IMG/VR virus record: IMGVR_UViG_2671180275_000003
Source of the DNA: a virus
Taxonomy: Duplodnaviria > Heunggongvirae > Uroviricota > Caudoviricetes
DNA: 5,078 nt
Strand: one strand, 5' to 3'
Shown here: positions 456-4,924 of the stretch, piece after piece
How the letters are laid out: every line of letters starts with the position of its first letter
How positions within the stretch are numbered: the first letter of the stretch is position 1
Made by a program: the position numbers and the translations under genes
The notes under the pieces: model-generated
Database searches by the model: none
What the model saw: only the letters and a program-made list of their open reading frames with translations
Told to the model about the DNA's origin: nothing

Positions 456-688
456 TGCTTGACTCCTTGCCCGGCAGATTTACCGTGGAGTAGCTTTTTA
501 AGGGCGGCGATTTCTCTTTCCTGATCCTGAATCACCCGGATTGCTTCCATGGTGATCCCCAGTGAGATCGAGGAAGATATAACGACCTTTGGTTTTCCAA
601 CGGCAGCTGCAACTTTGGCTGTTTCCTCGTGAGCACGGGCGATGTGACGTAACCCCCGCAAAAGTGCTTTGTTTCTTTCGCTATTCAT
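452..688 (-). CDS. Hypothetical small phage protein (78 aa), predicted helical/coiled-coil C-terminus
   Basis: ATG start preceded by AGGAG; ATGA stop/start overlap with the next gene downstream; same strand and tight packing as neighbours. No recognisable motif. Confidence 0.55.
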   Translation of the reverse strand: MNSERNKALLRGLRHIARAHEETAKVAAAVGKPKVVISSSISLGITMEAIRVIQDQEREIAALKKLLHGKSAGQGVKQ

Positions 689-723
689 TTCCTGACTCCT
701 GTGTTACTGATTCATCTGTTTAT

Positions 724-1704
724 TCACGTACTGGCAGGGGTAAACATCACGCAGTAAGTTGCATCTCCCGTTACCGGTCCGCAGTCCGGGCAGTAGCCAC
801 CGCCATGGCGACCGCAGGCGTCGCACTGTTTCAGGGTGGCGATAACCTCCGGTGCTGGTTCGCGGGTTCTTGCGCCAACGCTTCGTGGTGCCTGTATGCA
901 GTTCATCCGGTAACCCTGATAAATACGTCTGGTTTCCGGTGTGTCGGAATTGGAGATGGTGATTCTGGTCATGCCGCCCGTTTCCTGCGAAAGGCGGTCA
1001 AGTGCTGCCCTCAGGCGAACGTGCTCGTGTTCATCGAATGGTTTTCCGTAGGCGGTGAAATTGCCCTCGCCACTGAACCGCAGGTAAGGGGGATCGCAGT
1101 ACACGCAAAGCGTGTTGCCCATGCCGAACAGGTGACTGGCAGAGCTCAGCGTATCCTTAAAATCTGCGTGGATAAGCAGCGTTTGGGTGCTGTTTGCCTT
1201 GTCTGCAAATGCGCGGATTTCCCGCTCAGGGAAGTAGGGTTTTCGGTAGCCGCCGAAAGGCACGTTAAAATCACCTTTTCCGTTCACCCGGTACAGGCCA
1301 TTAAAACAGTGCCGGTTGAGGTACAAAAACATGGCGGCCAGTCGCAGTTCACGGCGGTCGCTTATTCCCGTTCTGCTACTCAGGAAGGCATGATTCTCTG
1401 CGTTAAAGGTTTCGCGAATGATGAGATAGTCACCCCTGTTGTTGTGGTTCAGGAACAGGGTTTTCGCCTCGTCGATCAGACTGTCGGTGTTGTCCCGTGC
1501 TGCCCGCCAGAAATTAATCAGCGCACCATTGGAATCACCCAGGATGTAACGCTTGTAACTGGTGTTCATGAATACCGATGCGCCACCCACGAACGGTTCA
1601 ACCAGGCAGTCAGCTTCTGGCAGATGCGCCTTCAGTGTGTTCATGATGCGGCTTTTGCCACCCACCCATTTCAGCGGTGTGCCGGATAACAGTTCTTTGC
1701 TCAT
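724..1704 (-). CDS. dam: Dam-family N6-adenine DNA methyltransferase (probably GATC-specific) with a ~55-aa Cys-rich C-terminal extension
   Basis: 326-aa product with LKWVGGK and CLVEPFVGGASVF (AdoMet-binding region), LFLYLNRHCFNGLYRVN...FNVPFGGYRKPYFPE, catalytic DPPY (VYCDPPY) and NFTAY, all close to E. coli Dam. SD AGAGG 8 nt upstream; ATGA overlap with the upstream ORF. C-terminal tail has CDAC...CPDC plus two further Cys. Confidence 0.9.
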   Translation of the reverse strand: MSKELLSGTPLKWVGGKSRIMNTLKAHLPEADCLVEPFVGGASVFMNTSYKRYILGDSNGALINFWRAARDNTDSLIDEAKTLFLNHNNRGDYLIIRETFNAENHAFLSSRTGISDRRELRLAAMFLYLNRHCFNGLYRVNGKGDFNVPFGGYRKPYFPEREIRAFADKANSTQTLLIHADFKDTLSSASHLFGMGNTLCVYCDPPYLRFSGEGNFTAYGKPFDEHEHVRLRAALDRLSQETGGMTRITISNSDTPETRRIYQGYRMNCIQAPRSVGARTREPAPEVIATLKQCDACGRHGGGYCPDCGPVTGDATYCVMFTPAST

Positions 1705-1928
1705 AACGCGGCCTCTTTGTTATAGGTTTCGTGCGTTAATAAATCCCATGACTTCCCGTTGTTTTTGCTCAGTAATCGCCAGCGAAAACCGATTCTTATT
1801 ACCAGGTAGTCGTGGGGTTTTATACGTGAAAAATTCCGCACGCCGTCGCGGAATAAACGCAGCGATGCGCGGGCTTTTCTTTCCACGTTCAGGGGGAGGC
1901 AGCAACACACATTCAGGATGGCGGCCAT
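1701..1928 (-). CDS. Hypothetical small protein (75 aa)
   Basis: ATG at 1928 with SD GAGGTG 6 nt upstream (the SD overlaps the exonuclease stop); stop overlaps the dam start as ATGA (1701..1704). Low-complexity sequence with no known motif; a competing 62-aa frame (1720..1908) exists, so confidence is moderate. Confidence 0.4.
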   Translation of the reverse strand: MAAILNVCCCLPLNVERKARASLRLFRDGVRNFSRIKPHDYLVIRIGFRWRLLSKNNGKSWDLLTHETYNKEAAL

Positions 1929-1937
1929 GGCTTCACC

Positions 1938-2519
1938 TCATATGTTCAGGAATGGTGTTGTGAAGCGCTGCCAGATTTCTGACACGACCTTTGCCTGGTA
2001 AACGGCGTCGCCCAGCGCGGTGTGAGCAATGGTCTCTTTGCCTGATCGGCCTGGCATTCTCCAGCCGGTTGATTCAGCCATGGCGATAAGCGGACGCATA
2101 CAGCGCTCGTCCCAGTAGCACCAGGGGATGCTTTTTTCTCCGGCTGTGCGTGTTATGGCGGATTTCAGGATTGGGAAATCGAAGGATGCGCCTTTGCACC
2201 ATATGGTCAGTGAATTGCCCGGGCTTTCGTCATGCATATTGCGTGAAATGAACGCCAGAAATTCGGTCACTGCTGCCAGCTCTGTTCCATCTGCGTTGCG
2301 CAGGCAGGCTCTGGCTTCCACGGATTGTCCGGCCCACCATACAGCGGTGGCTGCATTGACGGTTCCGCCGTTGCGTTCTGAATCCACCGGGTCGATGAAT
2401 TTCTCAAACTGCTTGCCCAGCTTTCCGGTGAACGGGTCGAAAAACACCGCCCCGATCGCGAATATGGCTGCGTCCGGTCCGTTACCCAGTGTTTCGGTGT
2501 CAATCATGAGATGGTTCAT
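1938..2519 (-). CDS. DnaQ-like DEDDh 3'-5' exonuclease (the type annotated as exonuclease/exodeoxyribonuclease in enterobacterial prophages)
   Basis: Exo I motif MIDTETLG, central FDFP acidic motif, Exo III motif HTALGDAVYQA (H-x4-D). The track start at 2528 is GTG; I prefer ATG at 2519..2517 (193 aa), which overlaps the upstream stop as TAATG and has AAGGGG about 8 nt upstream. Confidence 0.8.
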   Translation of the reverse strand: MNHLMIDTETLGNGPDAAIFAIGAVFFDPFTGKLGKQFEKFIDPVDSERNGGTVNAATAVWWAGQSVEARACLRNADGTELAAVTEFLAFISRNMHDESPGNSLTIWCKGASFDFPILKSAITRTAGEKSIPWCYWDERCMRPLIAMAESTGWRMPGRSGKETIAHTALGDAVYQAKVVSEIWQRFTTPFLNI

Positions 2520-2749
2520 TATGCGCACCCCTTCAGTTCGTCTGGGTTGGCGAGTATTGCAATCAGTCGTTCAATGGCTGCGCAGGTTTCCTGTGGACAG
2601 GTGTGTGTCTCTTTCGCTGTCTCAGTCAGCTCGCGCAGTAATTCGCAGATATGCGCACGCTCGGCTTTTCTTGCGGCCATGCTGATATGTGCATGATGGT
2701 TAGCTGGTCTGGCGGTTATTTTTCTGCCGGGTGATTCGGCTGTTCTCAT
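2519..2749 (-). CDS. Hypothetical small protein (76 aa from ATG; track version uses a TTG 8 codons upstream)
   Basis: Track ORF 2519..2773 begins at TTG; the in-frame ATG at 2749..2747 has a canonical AGGAG 7 nt upstream, so I place the start there. Four Cys residues, no recognisable domain. Its stop overlaps the exonuclease ATG. Confidence 0.5.
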   Translation of the reverse strand: MRTAESPGRKITARPANHHAHISMAARKAERAHICELLRELTETAKETHTCPQETCAAIERLIAILANPDELKGCA

Positions 2750-3953: not shown

Positions 3954-4478
3954 TCACTGGTTGCCTTCGCTGTATTGGTGTTGCTCCAGTTTTGACTTTC
4001 TTCCTGTGTAAACCCGCTTTCCATTGATGGTCTGGCAGTCTTCTTTGTTTGCCGGGGAAAACTTTCTTTTCTGTCGGTCGTATGTCCAGTAGCTTTTCCA
4101 GTTGTGCCATTCTGGCGGCTCGCATTCTGGTAGTTCGTCAGCCAGCTTGTCCCACTCTCTGGCGTTAAACCACCACACGCCATCCGAATTTTCATCTTCA
4201 GGGTTTGAACGGGTCTTGTGTCCAGGCATCTGATTTCGCTGAAGCGCCACGCGCAATGCAGCTTTTGTCAACCCGATATAGGCTGCCCCTTTTTCAAGTG
4301 AGCAAAGTCCGGCTACCGGGCCATCCAGTCGCAAGGTTGCCCCTTTTTTGTAGGTGCGTTTTTTCTTTTCCTCTTGGTGTTCATCGTCGTTTGCCGCGCC
4401 AACGGATTCGGTGATGCTGTCGTTTTCCTGAAGGGCTTGTGTGTCAGATAACTCTTTATCGGCAATTGACTTCCGCAT
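3954..4478 (-). CDS. Cox/Apl-like HTH DNA-binding protein (candidate excisionase/early-promoter regulator), 174 aa as drawn
   Basis: First gene of the operon facing the repressor. Central segment GAAYIGLTKAALRVALQRNQMPG...DGVWWFNAREWDKL has the HTH-then-aromatic-wing pattern of P2 Cox / 186 Apl. ATG at 4478 with SD AGAGGA 6 nt upstream. Acidic ~48-aa N-terminal and ~55-aa C-terminal extensions are atypical; an internal TTG (4334..4332) with AAGGGG upstream is an alternative start. Confidence 0.6.
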   Translation of the reverse strand: MRKSIADKELSDTQALQENDSITESVGAANDDEHQEEKKKRTYKKGATLRLDGPVAGLCSLEKGAAYIGLTKAALRVALQRNQMPGHKTRSNPEDENSDGVWWFNAREWDKLADELPECEPPEWHNWKSYWTYDRQKRKFSPANKEDCQTINGKRVYTGRKSKLEQHQYSEGNQ

Positions 4479-4582: not shown

Positions 4583-4924
4583 ATGGTTATCTTGTCAATA
4601 GACTATGCAAAAAAGCTACGTCAAATACGCAAGGCTGAAGGGCTAACGCAAAAGGAATTTGCGGATATTACGGGGTTGTCTTTAGCTGCCATAAGGAACT
4701 ATGAATCAGGGCAAAAAAGCGCCAGAGCCAAAATTGTTGAGATGGTTCTCCAAGTTGATCGGTTTGAAAAATACATGATGTGGCTAATAAAAGATAAGAC
4801 AATGCCTGCTGCCGGTCAGATAGCCCCGGCTCTCTCTCTTGATGGCTCCATTCAGTCGGAGGGCGATCAGGTTTCAATCGGCATTACCCAAAAATCACCC
4901 CGATCTCGTCGCAATGCTGGCTAA
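4583..4924 (+). CDS. Phage immunity repressor candidate, HTH-XRE family (P2 C-type by size and context), 113 aa
   Basis: N-terminal HTH LTQKEFADITGLSLAAIRNYESGQK; C-terminal KYMMWL...GQIAPAL resembles what I recall of P2 C; sits directly upstream of the integrase on the same strand; AGAGG 12 nt upstream of the ATG. Confidence 0.75.
   Translation: MVILSIDYAKKLRQIRKAEGLTQKEFADITGLSLAAIRNYESGQKSARAKIVEMVLQVDRFEKYMMWLIKDKTMPAAGQIAPALSLDGSIQSEGDQVSIGITQKSPRSRRNAG

What the first reader, a model, noticed from the sequence alone, without database searches (positions are those of the whole stretch)
724..900. Phage Dam methyltransferase carries a Cys-rich, zinc-ribbon-like C-terminal tail
The catalytic core (through NFTAY and about 50 residues beyond) aligns with canonical Dam, which ends near that point at ~278 aa. 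This protein continues for ~55 more residues containing CDAC-(7)-CPDC plus two flanking Cys, the spacing of a small zinc ribbon. An appended metal-binding module on an orphan phage methylase could change DNA targeting, processivity or partner binding, and may bear on how the phage evades host restriction.
Basis: partly seen in the sequence, partly recalled or inferred. Interest (0 to 1): 0.6.

Follow-up and report, generated by a model that had tools for sequence, protein, structure and literature searches.

The report
Portable cysteine module on phage Dam
The DNA methylase of this P2-like E. coli prophage ends in a small, conserved four-cysteine (probably zinc-binding) module that also sits inside the RecE exonuclease and other phage DNA enzymes. 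It therefore looks like a reusable add-on of unknown purpose, not a one-off oddity.

Summary
The motif is real. The Dam ORF (window 724..1704, minus strand, 326 aa) carries C294-DA-C297-GRHGGGY-C305-PD-C308-G.

Two details need correcting:
- E. coli Dam aligns through residue 292, so the true extension is 34 residues, not about 55.
- Neither flanking Cys belongs to the module. C269 lies in the methylase core. C318 was seen only in this allele.

The stop codon is genuine. Homologs at 86-98% identity have the same or almost the same length.

The tail is common. 115 of the 120 best homolog clusters keep all four Cys. These come from P2-like prophages of Escherichia, Klebsiella, Citrobacter, Enterobacter, Raoultella and Salmonella. 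The module is also more conserved (68%) than the catalytic core (48%). No Pfam or NCBIfam domain model covers it.

The new result is that the module is not specific to Dam. The same ~30-residue unit (CxxCGxxGGGxCPDCGxVMGDATYxxMF) occurs in:
- E. coli K-12 Rac RecE (residues 517-543);
- fusions of the RecE N-terminal region to a 3'-5' exonuclease;
- nuclease-less RecE relatives;
- small early proteins of Mu-like phages.

Its range is almost entirely Enterobacterales.

The module is acidic and often lies in disordered linkers. I therefore favour a metal-stabilised protein-docking tag over a DNA-binding finger. Metal binding, fold and partner are all undemonstrated, and structure prediction was low-confidence.

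The parts
724..1704 (-). Complete Dam-family DNA adenine methylase gene (326 codons plus stop at 724-726)
   Evidence: ORF list. PF02086 at 3.7e-53. TIGR00571 at 229 bits against a cut-off of 115. A 98.9%-identical E. coli copy is annotated as 'DNA adenine methylase', 326 aa.
829..1704 (-). Methylase core, residues 1-292, alignable with E. coli Dam
   Evidence: phmmer against PDB: query 11-292 matches 2g1p chain residues 8-269, E = 6e-52. The DPPY motif (D204-Y207) and the EPFVGG motif are invariant in 55 homologs.
742..828 (-). Appended Cys4 module, residues 293-321 (QCDACGRHGGGYCPDCGPVTGDATYCVMF)
   Evidence: Invariant C294, C297, C305 and C308. Nearly invariant G298, R299, G301-303, P306, D307, G309, T316, Y317 and M320. 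68% identity against 48% for the core. Matches internal segments of the RecE models NF007259 (positions 526-556, E = 1.7e-6) and phrog_20376 (6e-9).
811..825 (-). Knuckle 1: C294-D-A-C297-G298
   Evidence: Read directly from the sequence. Invariant Cys.
778..792 (-). Knuckle 2: C305-P-D-C308-G309 (rubredoxin/zinc-ribbon type CPxCG)
   Evidence: Read directly from the sequence. C, P, C and G are invariant across Dam, RecE and small-protein contexts.
724..741 (-). Variable C-terminal end (TPAST plus stop), not conserved
   Evidence: 6% identity to the ~50%-identity homologs. In the Klebsiella, Citrobacter and Salmonella relatives it is replaced by a longer tail ending in E-x-F.
751..753 (-). C318 codon, an allele-specific Cys that is not part of the module
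   Evidence: Ser in the 98.9%-identical copy L001 and in most close homologs.
898..900 (-). C269 codon, which lies inside the methylase core and is not part of the module
   Evidence: Within the stretch aligned to E. coli Dam. Not among the invariant columns.

Best explanation
The gene encodes an orphan Dam-type (probably GATC) adenine methylase of a P2-like prophage. A portable ~30-residue domain is fused directly to its last core strand.

The domain consists of two cysteine knuckles (CxxCG and CPxCG) separated by a Gly-rich 7-residue turn. These most likely hold one metal ion, probably zinc. A short conserved stretch, G-D-A-T-Y-x-x-M-F, follows them.

The same domain is inserted into RecE exonucleases, into fusions of the RecE N-terminal region with a 3'-5' exonuclease, into nuclease-less RecE relatives, and at the C-terminus of small early proteins of Mu-like phages.

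I infer that it works as a docking tag. It would attach whatever enzyme carries it to one common target in the infected enterobacterial cell. That target is more likely a protein than DNA, for example a component at replication or recombination sites.

- **Shown:** the motif, its conservation, its boundaries, its modular distribution, its acidic charge and its taxonomic range.
- **Inferred:** metal binding, the fold, the docking role and the nature of the partner.
For: **Dam core**
- Family models pass their cut-offs.
- The core aligns with E. coli Dam, including the positions of E. coli Dam K9, N120, L122, R124, P134 and Y138. The roles of these residues in GATC recognition are from my recollection of the 2g1p paper, not from a tool result.

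**Module constraint**
- The four Cys are invariant in 55 Dam homologs and in 40 module sequences from all contexts.
- Identity is 68% for the module and 79% for the knuckles, against 48% for the core.
- Between the Dam and K-12 RecE modules, identity at codon positions 1/2/3 is 81/74/44%. This indicates old, protein-level selection.

**Portability**
- tblastn of the tail hits 'exodeoxyribonuclease VIII' genes in lambdoid, Rac-like and Stx phages at about 67% identity.
- The module is present in K-12 RecE.
- It matches PHROG and NCBIfam exonuclease models.
- A profile search of 1.84 billion cluster representatives found only 53 clusters at E <= 0.001, about 30 of them carrying the motif. Their architectures are Dam, PF06630+PDDEXK, PF06630+PF16473, PF06630 alone, and small proteins with no Pfam match.
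- A 79-aa carrier lies beside kil and gemA in a Mu-like early region.
- At least 496 IMG/VR contigs carry the module. The best 80 comprise 25 Dam, 48 exonuclease fusions, 4 RecE, 2 nuclease-less proteins and 1 small protein.
- There is one copy per locus.

**Docking rather than DNA binding**
- Mean net charge is about -2 in both the Dam and non-Dam contexts.
- In RecE the module sits between acidic, low-complexity linkers.

**Plausibility of metal binding**
- A 15-residue CxxC-x8-CxxC mini zinc ribbon in M. mazei MtrI binds zinc by ICP-MS (PMC12774963). It is the closest full-motif match among solved chains (E = 0.0045).
Against: - No metal-binding or structural evidence exists for this module.
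- AlphaFold2 gave mean pLDDT 55 for the full protein, mostly below 50 in the tail. For the module alone, mean pLDDT was 58, and 60-67 over the knuckles.
- No coordinates were available, so Cys-Cys distances could not be measured.
- Foldseek matches to small C4 fingers (RanBP2-type, NZF, PRDM4 knuckle) are all non-significant, E > 0.6.
- No curated zinc-ribbon family matches above its cut-off.
- No partner was identified, and no co-occurrence or interaction data were available.
- The restriction to Enterobacterales may simply reflect the shared gene pool of these phages and not a host-specific target.
- In Dam the module follows the core without a linker. That arrangement would also suit an intramolecular structural role.
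Confidence: 0.45

Rival explanations
1. The module is a nucleic-acid-binding zinc finger. It would give Dam, RecE and the 3'-5' exonuclease extra grip on DNA, raising processivity or directing them to ssDNA, DNA ends or fork structures.
For: All identified carrier enzymes act on DNA. Small C4 knuckles and RanBP2-type fingers can bind single-stranded nucleic acid; the top, non-significant, fold match is ZRANB2 ZnF2, which binds ssRNA. Other methylases use appended DNA-binding domains, such as the CcrM C-terminal domain and the DNMT1 CXXC domain (my knowledge).
Against: Net charge is about -2 and no basic residue is conserved across contexts. R299 of Dam is Q, M, H or K elsewhere. In RecE the flanking sequence is strongly acidic. 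Only D, T, Y, M/F and Gly residues are conserved besides the Cys.
Confidence: 0.2
2. The module has no external ligand. It would be a metal-stabilised structural cap or spacer that stabilises folding, protects termini and linkers from proteolysis, or drives self-association of the carrier protein.
For: In Dam it follows the last core strand with no linker. The authors of the MtrI paper state that most zinc ribbons serve a structural role (PMC12774963). Most conserved positions (Cys, Gly, Pro) are fold-determining.
Against: A purely structural cap would not be expected to move between unrelated proteins. Nor would it be expected to sit as an island inside long disordered acidic linkers of RecE, or to make up nearly half of 79-92 aa proteins. 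The conserved T-Y-x-x-M-F stretch after the knuckles suggests an exposed interaction surface, though this is inference.
Confidence: 0.17
3. The four Cys bind iron as in rubredoxin, or form reversible disulfides. The module would then be a redox or oxidative-stress switch that tunes enzyme activity during prophage induction.
For: CxxCG and CPxCG are the rubredoxin knuckle signatures (my knowledge). Weak profile hits include rubredoxin 2 and a miniaturised rubredoxin (E = 0.66 and 4). The closest solved analogue, MtrI, is an oxygen-stress-responsive protein.
Against: The hits are non-significant. The spacer is 7 residues, against about 29 in rubredoxins. There are no redox partners in the neighbourhood. 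MtrI's ribbon binds zinc.
Confidence: 0.06
4. The tail is not a functional feature. It would be a read-through, frameshift or sequencing artefact, or a chance Cys cluster.
For: None found.
Against: Homologs at 86-98% identity have the same or almost the same length. The four Cys are kept in 115 of 120 clusters down to 50% identity. The chance expectation is about 3e-4 or less. The third-codon-position pattern indicates purifying selection.
Confidence: 0.01

Closest known systems
E. coli Dam (PDB 2g1p, 4rtj) and DpnM (2dpm): D12-class GATC adenine methylases
   Same: The core (residues 11-292) aligns end to end with E. coli Dam at E = 6e-52, with DPPY and the AdoMet motif conserved. The same Pfam and TIGRFAM families match.
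   Different: E. coli Dam stops 9 residues after the alignable end and has no Cys module. The window protein scores 218 bits against the 441-bit cut-off of the host Dam equivalog NF008152. It is therefore a family member and not the host-type orthologue.
RecE / exonuclease VIII of the Rac prophage (E. coli K-12 b1350), N-terminal region
   Same: It contains the same module at residues 517-543 ([27 protein letters not shown]), about 67% identical to the Dam tail. The tail matches the RecE model NF007259 at positions 526-556.
   Different: In RecE the module is internal, flanked by acidic low-complexity linkers between the PF06630 domain and the PDDEXK nuclease. There is no other similarity between the two proteins. 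From my knowledge, this part of RecE is dispensable for the nuclease and is absent from the truncated forms used in recombineering. I found no paper that mentions the motif.
MtrI of Methanosarcina mazei (PDB 9qtr chain i): N-terminal 15-residue mini zinc ribbon
   Same: It has CxxCG-x(6-7)-C-x2-CG-x-VM, almost the same spacing and knuckle residues. Zinc binding was shown by ICP-MS. It sits on a small protein whose job is to bind another complex (PMC12774963).
   Different: It is archaeal and N-terminal, and it lacks the GDATYxxMF continuation. The similarity is marginal (E = 0.0045 against PDB) and may be convergence of generic knuckles. The function of MtrI's ribbon is also unknown.
RanBP2-type / NZF zinc fingers (ZRANB2 ZnF2, TAB2 NZF, Trabid NZF1)
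   Same: These are ~30-residue C4 modules built from two knuckles. They are used as portable protein- or RNA-binding tags. They are the best fold matches to the predicted module.
   Different: The matches are non-significant (E > 0.6) and rest on a low-confidence model. These fingers are eukaryotic, have a 10-residue spacer and carry a different signature (W-x-C-x2-C-x3-N-x6-C-x2-C, from my knowledge).
SecA C-terminal zinc-binding tail and the ClpX N-terminal zinc-binding domain (from my knowledge)
   Same: Both are tiny terminal metal-binding modules on bacterial enzymes whose role is docking to a partner (SecB; adaptors and substrates). This is the kind of mechanism proposed here.
   Different: There is no sequence relationship, and their Cys/His patterns differ. 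The analogy was not tested here.

Membership tests
Dam family, D12-class N6-adenine DNA methyltransferase (PF02086 / TIGR00571) | Scores above the curated family cut-offs | tested here: met
   PF02086: 181.3 bits against a cut-off of 22. TIGR00571: 228.8 bits against 114.85.
Dam family, D12-class N6-adenine DNA methyltransferase (PF02086 / TIGR00571) | Catalytic motif IV (D-P-P-Y) and AdoMet-binding motif I (F-x-G-x-G) | tested here: met
   D204-P205-P206-Y207 and E36-P-F38-V-G40-G are invariant in 55 homologs and align with E. coli Dam.
Dam family, D12-class N6-adenine DNA methyltransferase (PF02086 / TIGR00571) | GATC-contacting residues of E. coli Dam (K9, Y119, N120, L122, R124, P134, R137, Y138; roles recalled from the 2g1p paper) | tested here: inconclusive
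   In the alignment, K9, N120, L122, R124, P134 and Y138 are conserved, Y119 becomes F and R137 becomes G. Specificity was not measured.
Host-type Dam orthologue (NCBIfam equivalog NF008152) | Score at or above the equivalog cut-off | tested here: not met
   218.2 bits against a cut-off of 441. The gene lies in a P2-like prophage next to dmsA.
C4 zinc ribbon / zinc knuckle pair | Two CxxC knuckles with the typical CxxCG and CPxCG signatures | tested here: met
   C294-DA-C297-G and C305-PD-C308-G.
C4 zinc ribbon / zinc knuckle pair | All four ligands invariant in homologs | tested here: met
   Invariant in 55 Dam homologs and in 40 modules from Dam, RecE, exonuclease fusions and small proteins. 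115 of 120 clusters keep the pattern.
C4 zinc ribbon / zinc knuckle pair | Beta-hairpin fold that brings the four Cys together | tested here: inconclusive
   AlphaFold2 on the module alone gave mean pLDDT 58, with short beta bridges at the knuckles and a helix at residues 30-35. No coordinates were returned. Foldseek hits to small C4 fingers all have E > 0.6.
C4 zinc ribbon / zinc knuckle pair | Stoichiometric metal binding | not testable with these tools
   This needs ICP-MS or a PAR assay on purified protein. The precedent for a similarly short ribbon is MtrI.
C4 zinc ribbon / zinc knuckle pair | Match to a curated zinc-ribbon family | tested here: not met
   The best Pfam hits are HVO_0758 (E = 0.55, 10.5 bits against a cut-off of 27) and, on other carriers, DZR and DUF7577 below their cut-offs.
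RecE / exonuclease VIII (NF007259, PF06630, PF12684) | Exonuc_VIII N-terminal domain and PDDEXK nuclease domain | tested here: not met
   Only the 30-40 residue module matches: NF007259 positions 516-556, 23 bits against a cut-off of 1269. There is no PF06630 or PF12684 hit. The module is shared, but the protein is not a family member.

The most novel reading that the evidence does not exclude
The ~30-residue Cys4 unit is an undescribed, self-contained 'address label' of temperate enterobacterial phages. Fused to unrelated early enzymes (Dam methylase, RecE 5'-3' exonuclease, a DnaQ-like 3'-5' exonuclease, small Mu-like proteins), it would recruit each of them to the same host target, such as a replisome, SSB or recombination component. 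If so, the long-unexplained N-terminal region of RecE and the tail of P2-type Dam would share one function.
Probability: 0.3. Interest if true: 0.65.

Novelty: new variant of a known kind. Interest (0 to 1): 0.45.

Why it matters
Dam methylases and RecE are textbook enzymes, and RecE/RecT is a standard recombineering tool. Even so, the large N-terminal part of RecE has no assigned function, to my knowledge.

A conserved metal-knuckle module is shared by RecE, by its exonuclease-swapped relatives and by the Dam of P2-like phages. It gives a small, well-defined handle of 30 residues and four Cys for asking what these proteins are tethered to in the cell.

If it is a docking tag, it would:
- reveal a host target that several phage families exploit;
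- explain why the full-length and truncated enzymes differ, as has been reported for RecE (my recollection; no paper was checked here);
- provide a portable targeting peptide.

If it is only a structural cap, the finding is a minor annotation gap: an unmodelled domain that deserves a Pfam entry.

Tried and rejected
1. **Full-length structure.** AlphaFold2 with a 55-sequence alignment gave mean pLDDT 55, with most of the tail below 50. This is unusable for asking whether the Cys converge.
2. **Module-only structure.** A prediction with 40 module sequences gave mean pLDDT 58. The model coordinates are not exposed, so no distances could be measured.
3. **Fold search.** Foldseek against PDB returned only non-significant small zinc fingers.
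4. **Word-indexed search.** A profile search with the module returned only 24 proteins (E <= 10) among 43 candidates, mostly fragments. It was useful only for finding the 76-79 aa Mu-like carriers and the Dam deletion remnants.
5. **False positives in the representative search.** Several long proteins of 800-3300 aa matched through many short stretches of profile positions 43-62. They contain no CxxC...CxxC motif, and I treat them as low-complexity false positives.
6. **Aeromonas phage hits** cover only 17 residues, and the annotated gene under the match has no CxxC...CxxC motif. Rejected.
7. **Recent DNA exchange.** I considered that the shared module reflects recent recombination between Dam and recE genes. 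I rejected this because nucleotide identity is 67%, with third codon positions at 44%.
8. **Literature.** Searches for any description of the motif in RecE or in phage Dam found nothing relevant in the held library. The only related statement is that the roles of nuclease-less 'RecE-2' proteins are unknown (PMC12315714).
9. **Second copy.** I looked for another copy of the module elsewhere in the prophage early region and in related loci. There is exactly one per locus.
Full report
**Where the window comes from**

The 5,078-base window is the early (lytic) operon of a P2-like (Peduoviridae) prophage of E. coli.
- It is 98% identical over its whole length to a prophage inserted next to dmsA in strain STEC2018-607.
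- Its right end resembles the repressor/cox/integrase region of P88-like phages.
- The plus strand carries an HTH repressor at 4583..4924.
- The minus strand carries, in order:
  - a long Cox-like gene (3954..4478);
  - DUF4761 and DUF4754 genes;
  - a stand-alone Rv2179c-like 3'-5' exonuclease (1938..2528);
  - a ParE-like gene (1701..1928);
  - the Dam gene (724..1704);
  - two small ORFs.
- The replication endonuclease gene lies further on, outside the window.

**Checking the observation**

The ORF at 724..1704 (-) encodes 326 aa.
- PF02086 covers residues 13-267, and TIGR00571 passes its cut-off.
- The C-terminus reads ...EVIATLKQ-CDAC-GRHGGGY-CPDC-GPVTGDATYCVMFTPAST.
- At the protein's own Cys frequency, about 3e-4 such patterns are expected by chance.

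Two details need correcting.
- E. coli Dam (278 aa) aligns to query residues 11-292. The appended part is therefore residues 293-326, or 34 aa, not about 55.
- C269 lies in the aligned core. C318 is Ser in the 98.9%-identical copy and in most close homologs. Only four Cys matter.

The stop codon is real. The RefSeq copy is annotated at 326 aa, and clusters at 86-94% identity are 324-326 aa.

**Conservation within Dam**
- Of the 120 best homolog clusters, 115 keep CxxC-x(7-8)-CxxC. They come from Escherichia, Klebsiella, Citrobacter, Enterobacter and Raoultella.
- Salmonella and Enterobacter P2-like phages such as SW3, SI7 and phiT5282H also carry the tail.
- In a 55-sequence alignment, C294, C297, C305 and C308 are invariant. 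G298, R299, G301-303, P306, D307, G309, T316, Y317 and M320 are nearly invariant.
- Against the 47 homologs at about 50% overall identity, the core is 48% identical, the module 68% and the knuckles 79%. The last five residues are not conserved.
- The Dam of Erwinia phage Ea9-2 (44% identity, 264 aa) ends without the module. Salmonella phage SEN5 has a variant tail with 11 Cys.
- The tail is therefore a shared feature of the Dam clade of enterobacterial P2-like phages. It is common, but no Pfam or NCBIfam domain model covers it. Records name the protein simply 'DNA adenine methylase'.
- This particular allele group occurs in 29 of 5,426 complete E. coli genomes.

**The module is not Dam-specific**

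This is the main new result.
- tblastn of the 41-residue tail against phage genomes hit Dam genes. More often, it hit genes annotated 'exodeoxyribonuclease VIII' in Rac-like, lambdoid and Stx phages, at about 67% identity over 30 residues (E about 1e-7).
- Translation shows the unit inside Rac-SA53 RecE and inside a 682-aa nuclease-less relative in Shigella phage 75/02.
- It is also inside E. coli K-12 RecE at residues 517-543: [27 protein letters not shown].
- PHROG exonuclease families (phrog_20376, phrog_2082, phrog_607) and the NCBIfam RecE equivalog match the tail at internal positions.
- Pfam finds nothing at that place in RecE, only PF06630 at the N-terminus and the PDDEXK domain at the C-terminus.

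A profile of the module was searched against 1.84 billion cluster representatives.
- It found only 53 clusters at E <= 0.001, and about 30 of them really carry the motif.
- Their architectures are:

| Architecture | Examples |
|---|---|
| Dam + module | P0155 |
| PF06630 ... module ... PDDEXK | P0163 |
| PF06630 ... module ... Rv2179c-like 3'-5' exonuclease | IMG/VR loci L027, L043 |
| Module + Rv2179c-like exonuclease, no PF06630 hit at E <= 0.001 | P0145, P0154 |
| PF06630 ... module, no nuclease | P0149, P0160 |
| 79-190 aa proteins with a C-terminal module | P0137, P0159, P0162, P0166, P0168 |
| ~322 aa proteins, no Pfam or PHROG family outside the module, module at the extreme C-terminus | P0190, P0193 |

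- P0137 lies beside kil and gemA in a Mu-like early region.
- At least 496 IMG/VR contigs encode the module. Of the best 80, 25 are Dam, 48 are fusions of RecE N-terminal or middle regions to a 3'-5' exonuclease, 4 are RecE, 2 are nuclease-less and 1 is a small protein.
- In a collection with one genome per species, a deliberately strict pattern found 19 loci. All are Enterobacterales apart from two metagenome bins.
- Each locus has one copy.
- The exonuclease domain fused behind the module in lambdoid phages is the same family as the stand-alone exonuclease two genes upstream of Dam (separated from it by the ParE-like gene) in this window.

**Age and selection**

The Dam and K-12 RecE modules are 67% identical in both protein and DNA. 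Identity at codon positions 1, 2 and 3 is 81%, 74% and 44%. The similarity is therefore maintained at the protein level. It is not a trace of recent DNA exchange or a recombination linker.

**What the module probably is**
- CxxCG and CPxCG are the classical knuckles of rubredoxin and zinc-ribbon metal sites (my knowledge). Invariance of exactly four Cys across all contexts is what a single tetrahedral metal site predicts.
- A 7-residue spacer is short but has precedent. M. mazei MtrI has a 15-residue CxxC-x8-CxxC ribbon that binds zinc by ICP-MS (PMC12774963). It is the closest full-motif match among solved chains (E = 0.0045).
- Structure prediction did not settle the fold. The full-length model had mean pLDDT 55. 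The module alone had mean pLDDT 58, with beta bridges at the knuckles and a short helix over ATYCVM.
- The best fold matches are RanBP2-type and NZF fingers and a PRDM4 knuckle, all non-significant.
- Metal binding and fold therefore remain inferences.

**How it most likely works**
- The module is acidic, with mean net charge about -2, and has no basic residue conserved across contexts.
- In RecE it is an island in long acidic, low-complexity linkers.
- It makes up nearly half of some small proteins.
- It has been attached to enzymes with unrelated chemistry.
- These features fit a portable docking tag better than a DNA-binding finger or a structural cap for one particular fold.
- I therefore favour a metal-stabilised knuckle that presents the conserved G-D-A-T-Y-x-x-M-F stretch to a common target, probably a protein of the enterobacterial host. 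My confidence in the overall picture is about 0.45.
- The rivals are DNA or ssDNA binding (0.2), a purely structural or oligomerisation role (0.17), an iron or redox switch (0.06) and an artefact (0.01).
- The Dam core itself looks like an ordinary GATC methylase. Most residues that contact GATC in E. coli Dam are conserved in the alignment. Their roles are from my memory of the 2g1p paper.
- Nothing here bears on evasion of host restriction.

**Comparison with what is known, and novelty**
- The protein is a bona fide member of the Dam family but not the host-type orthologue (NF008152 scores 218 bits against a cut-off of 441).
- The tail is not a member of any curated zinc-ribbon family.
- I found no paper in the held library that mentions this motif in RecE or in phage Dam. 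A 2025 survey notes only that the roles of nuclease-less 'RecE-2' proteins are unknown (PMC12315714).
- I rate it a new variant of a known kind: a standard methylase carrying an undescribed, promiscuous mini-domain.
- Interest is moderate (0.45). The feature is common, and its function is unproven. However, the link to the unexplained N-terminal region of RecE makes a concrete, testable question.

Noticed in passing
window 1701-1928 (-): A ParE-like toxin domain gene (PF24732, E = 3.7e-18) overlaps the Dam start codon by 4 nt. No obvious antitoxin gene lies beside it. Its neighbours are the 3'-5' exonuclease and Dam.
   Followed up: no
window 1938-2528 (-): A stand-alone Rv2179c-like 3'-5' exonuclease (PF16473, 2.4e-50). 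In lambdoid and Stx phages the same domain is fused behind a RecE N-terminal region plus the Cys module (P0145, P0154; 48 of the 80 best IMG/VR loci).
   Followed up: partly
Dam homologs P0023-P0120; L002 2986-3969 (Salmonella phage SW3): 77 of 113 full-length Dam homologs end in Phe, and 74 of these have an acidic residue among the last five residues, mostly as E-x-F (EGF, EPF, EAF, ESF). The tip lies roughly 20 residues after the module. It resembles the acidic tip of SSB (DDDIPF, from my knowledge). The E. coli branch, including the window, lacks it.
   Followed up: partly
P0132, P0136 (65 aa; Raoultella chromosome and other contigs): In-frame Dam deletion remnants join the first 14 residues (MIKSPLKWAGGKTR) directly to the Cys tail. 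The module stays in frame although the methylase is gone.
   Followed up: no
L013 1486-2469 (Salmonella phage SEN5 Dam): A variant Dam tail with 11 Cys (VCDGCGRYDGGHCAQCCPGIAACEEGWSFDCCGNCDICEP...), possibly forming more than one metal site.
   Followed up: no
L008 59-298 (Logan contig, Mu-like early region): A 79-aa protein (P0137) consists of an unknown ~45-residue N-terminal part plus the module. It lies immediately upstream of kil, gemA and a DUF3164 gene.
   Followed up: partly
window 589-1689 (+): A 366-codon ORF lies antisense to the Dam gene. It was not searched on its own; the plus strand here is unannotated in the 98%-identical RefSeq copy, and the sequence is explained by Dam on the minus strand. 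It is most likely an artefact of the opposite-strand coding sequence.
   Followed up: no
window 3954-4478 (-): The Cox-like protein is 174 aa, about twice the length of P2 Cox (from my knowledge). The Phage_Cox profile matches only residues 58-129 and falls just below its cut-off (25.3 bits against 27.5).
   Followed up: no
L009 7839-8009 (E. coli K-12 ydaE, Rac prophage): RefSeq annotates the small gene ydaE, two genes upstream of recE, as a 'zinc-binding protein'. Its Cys pattern differs from the module and the two are unrelated.
   Followed up: yes
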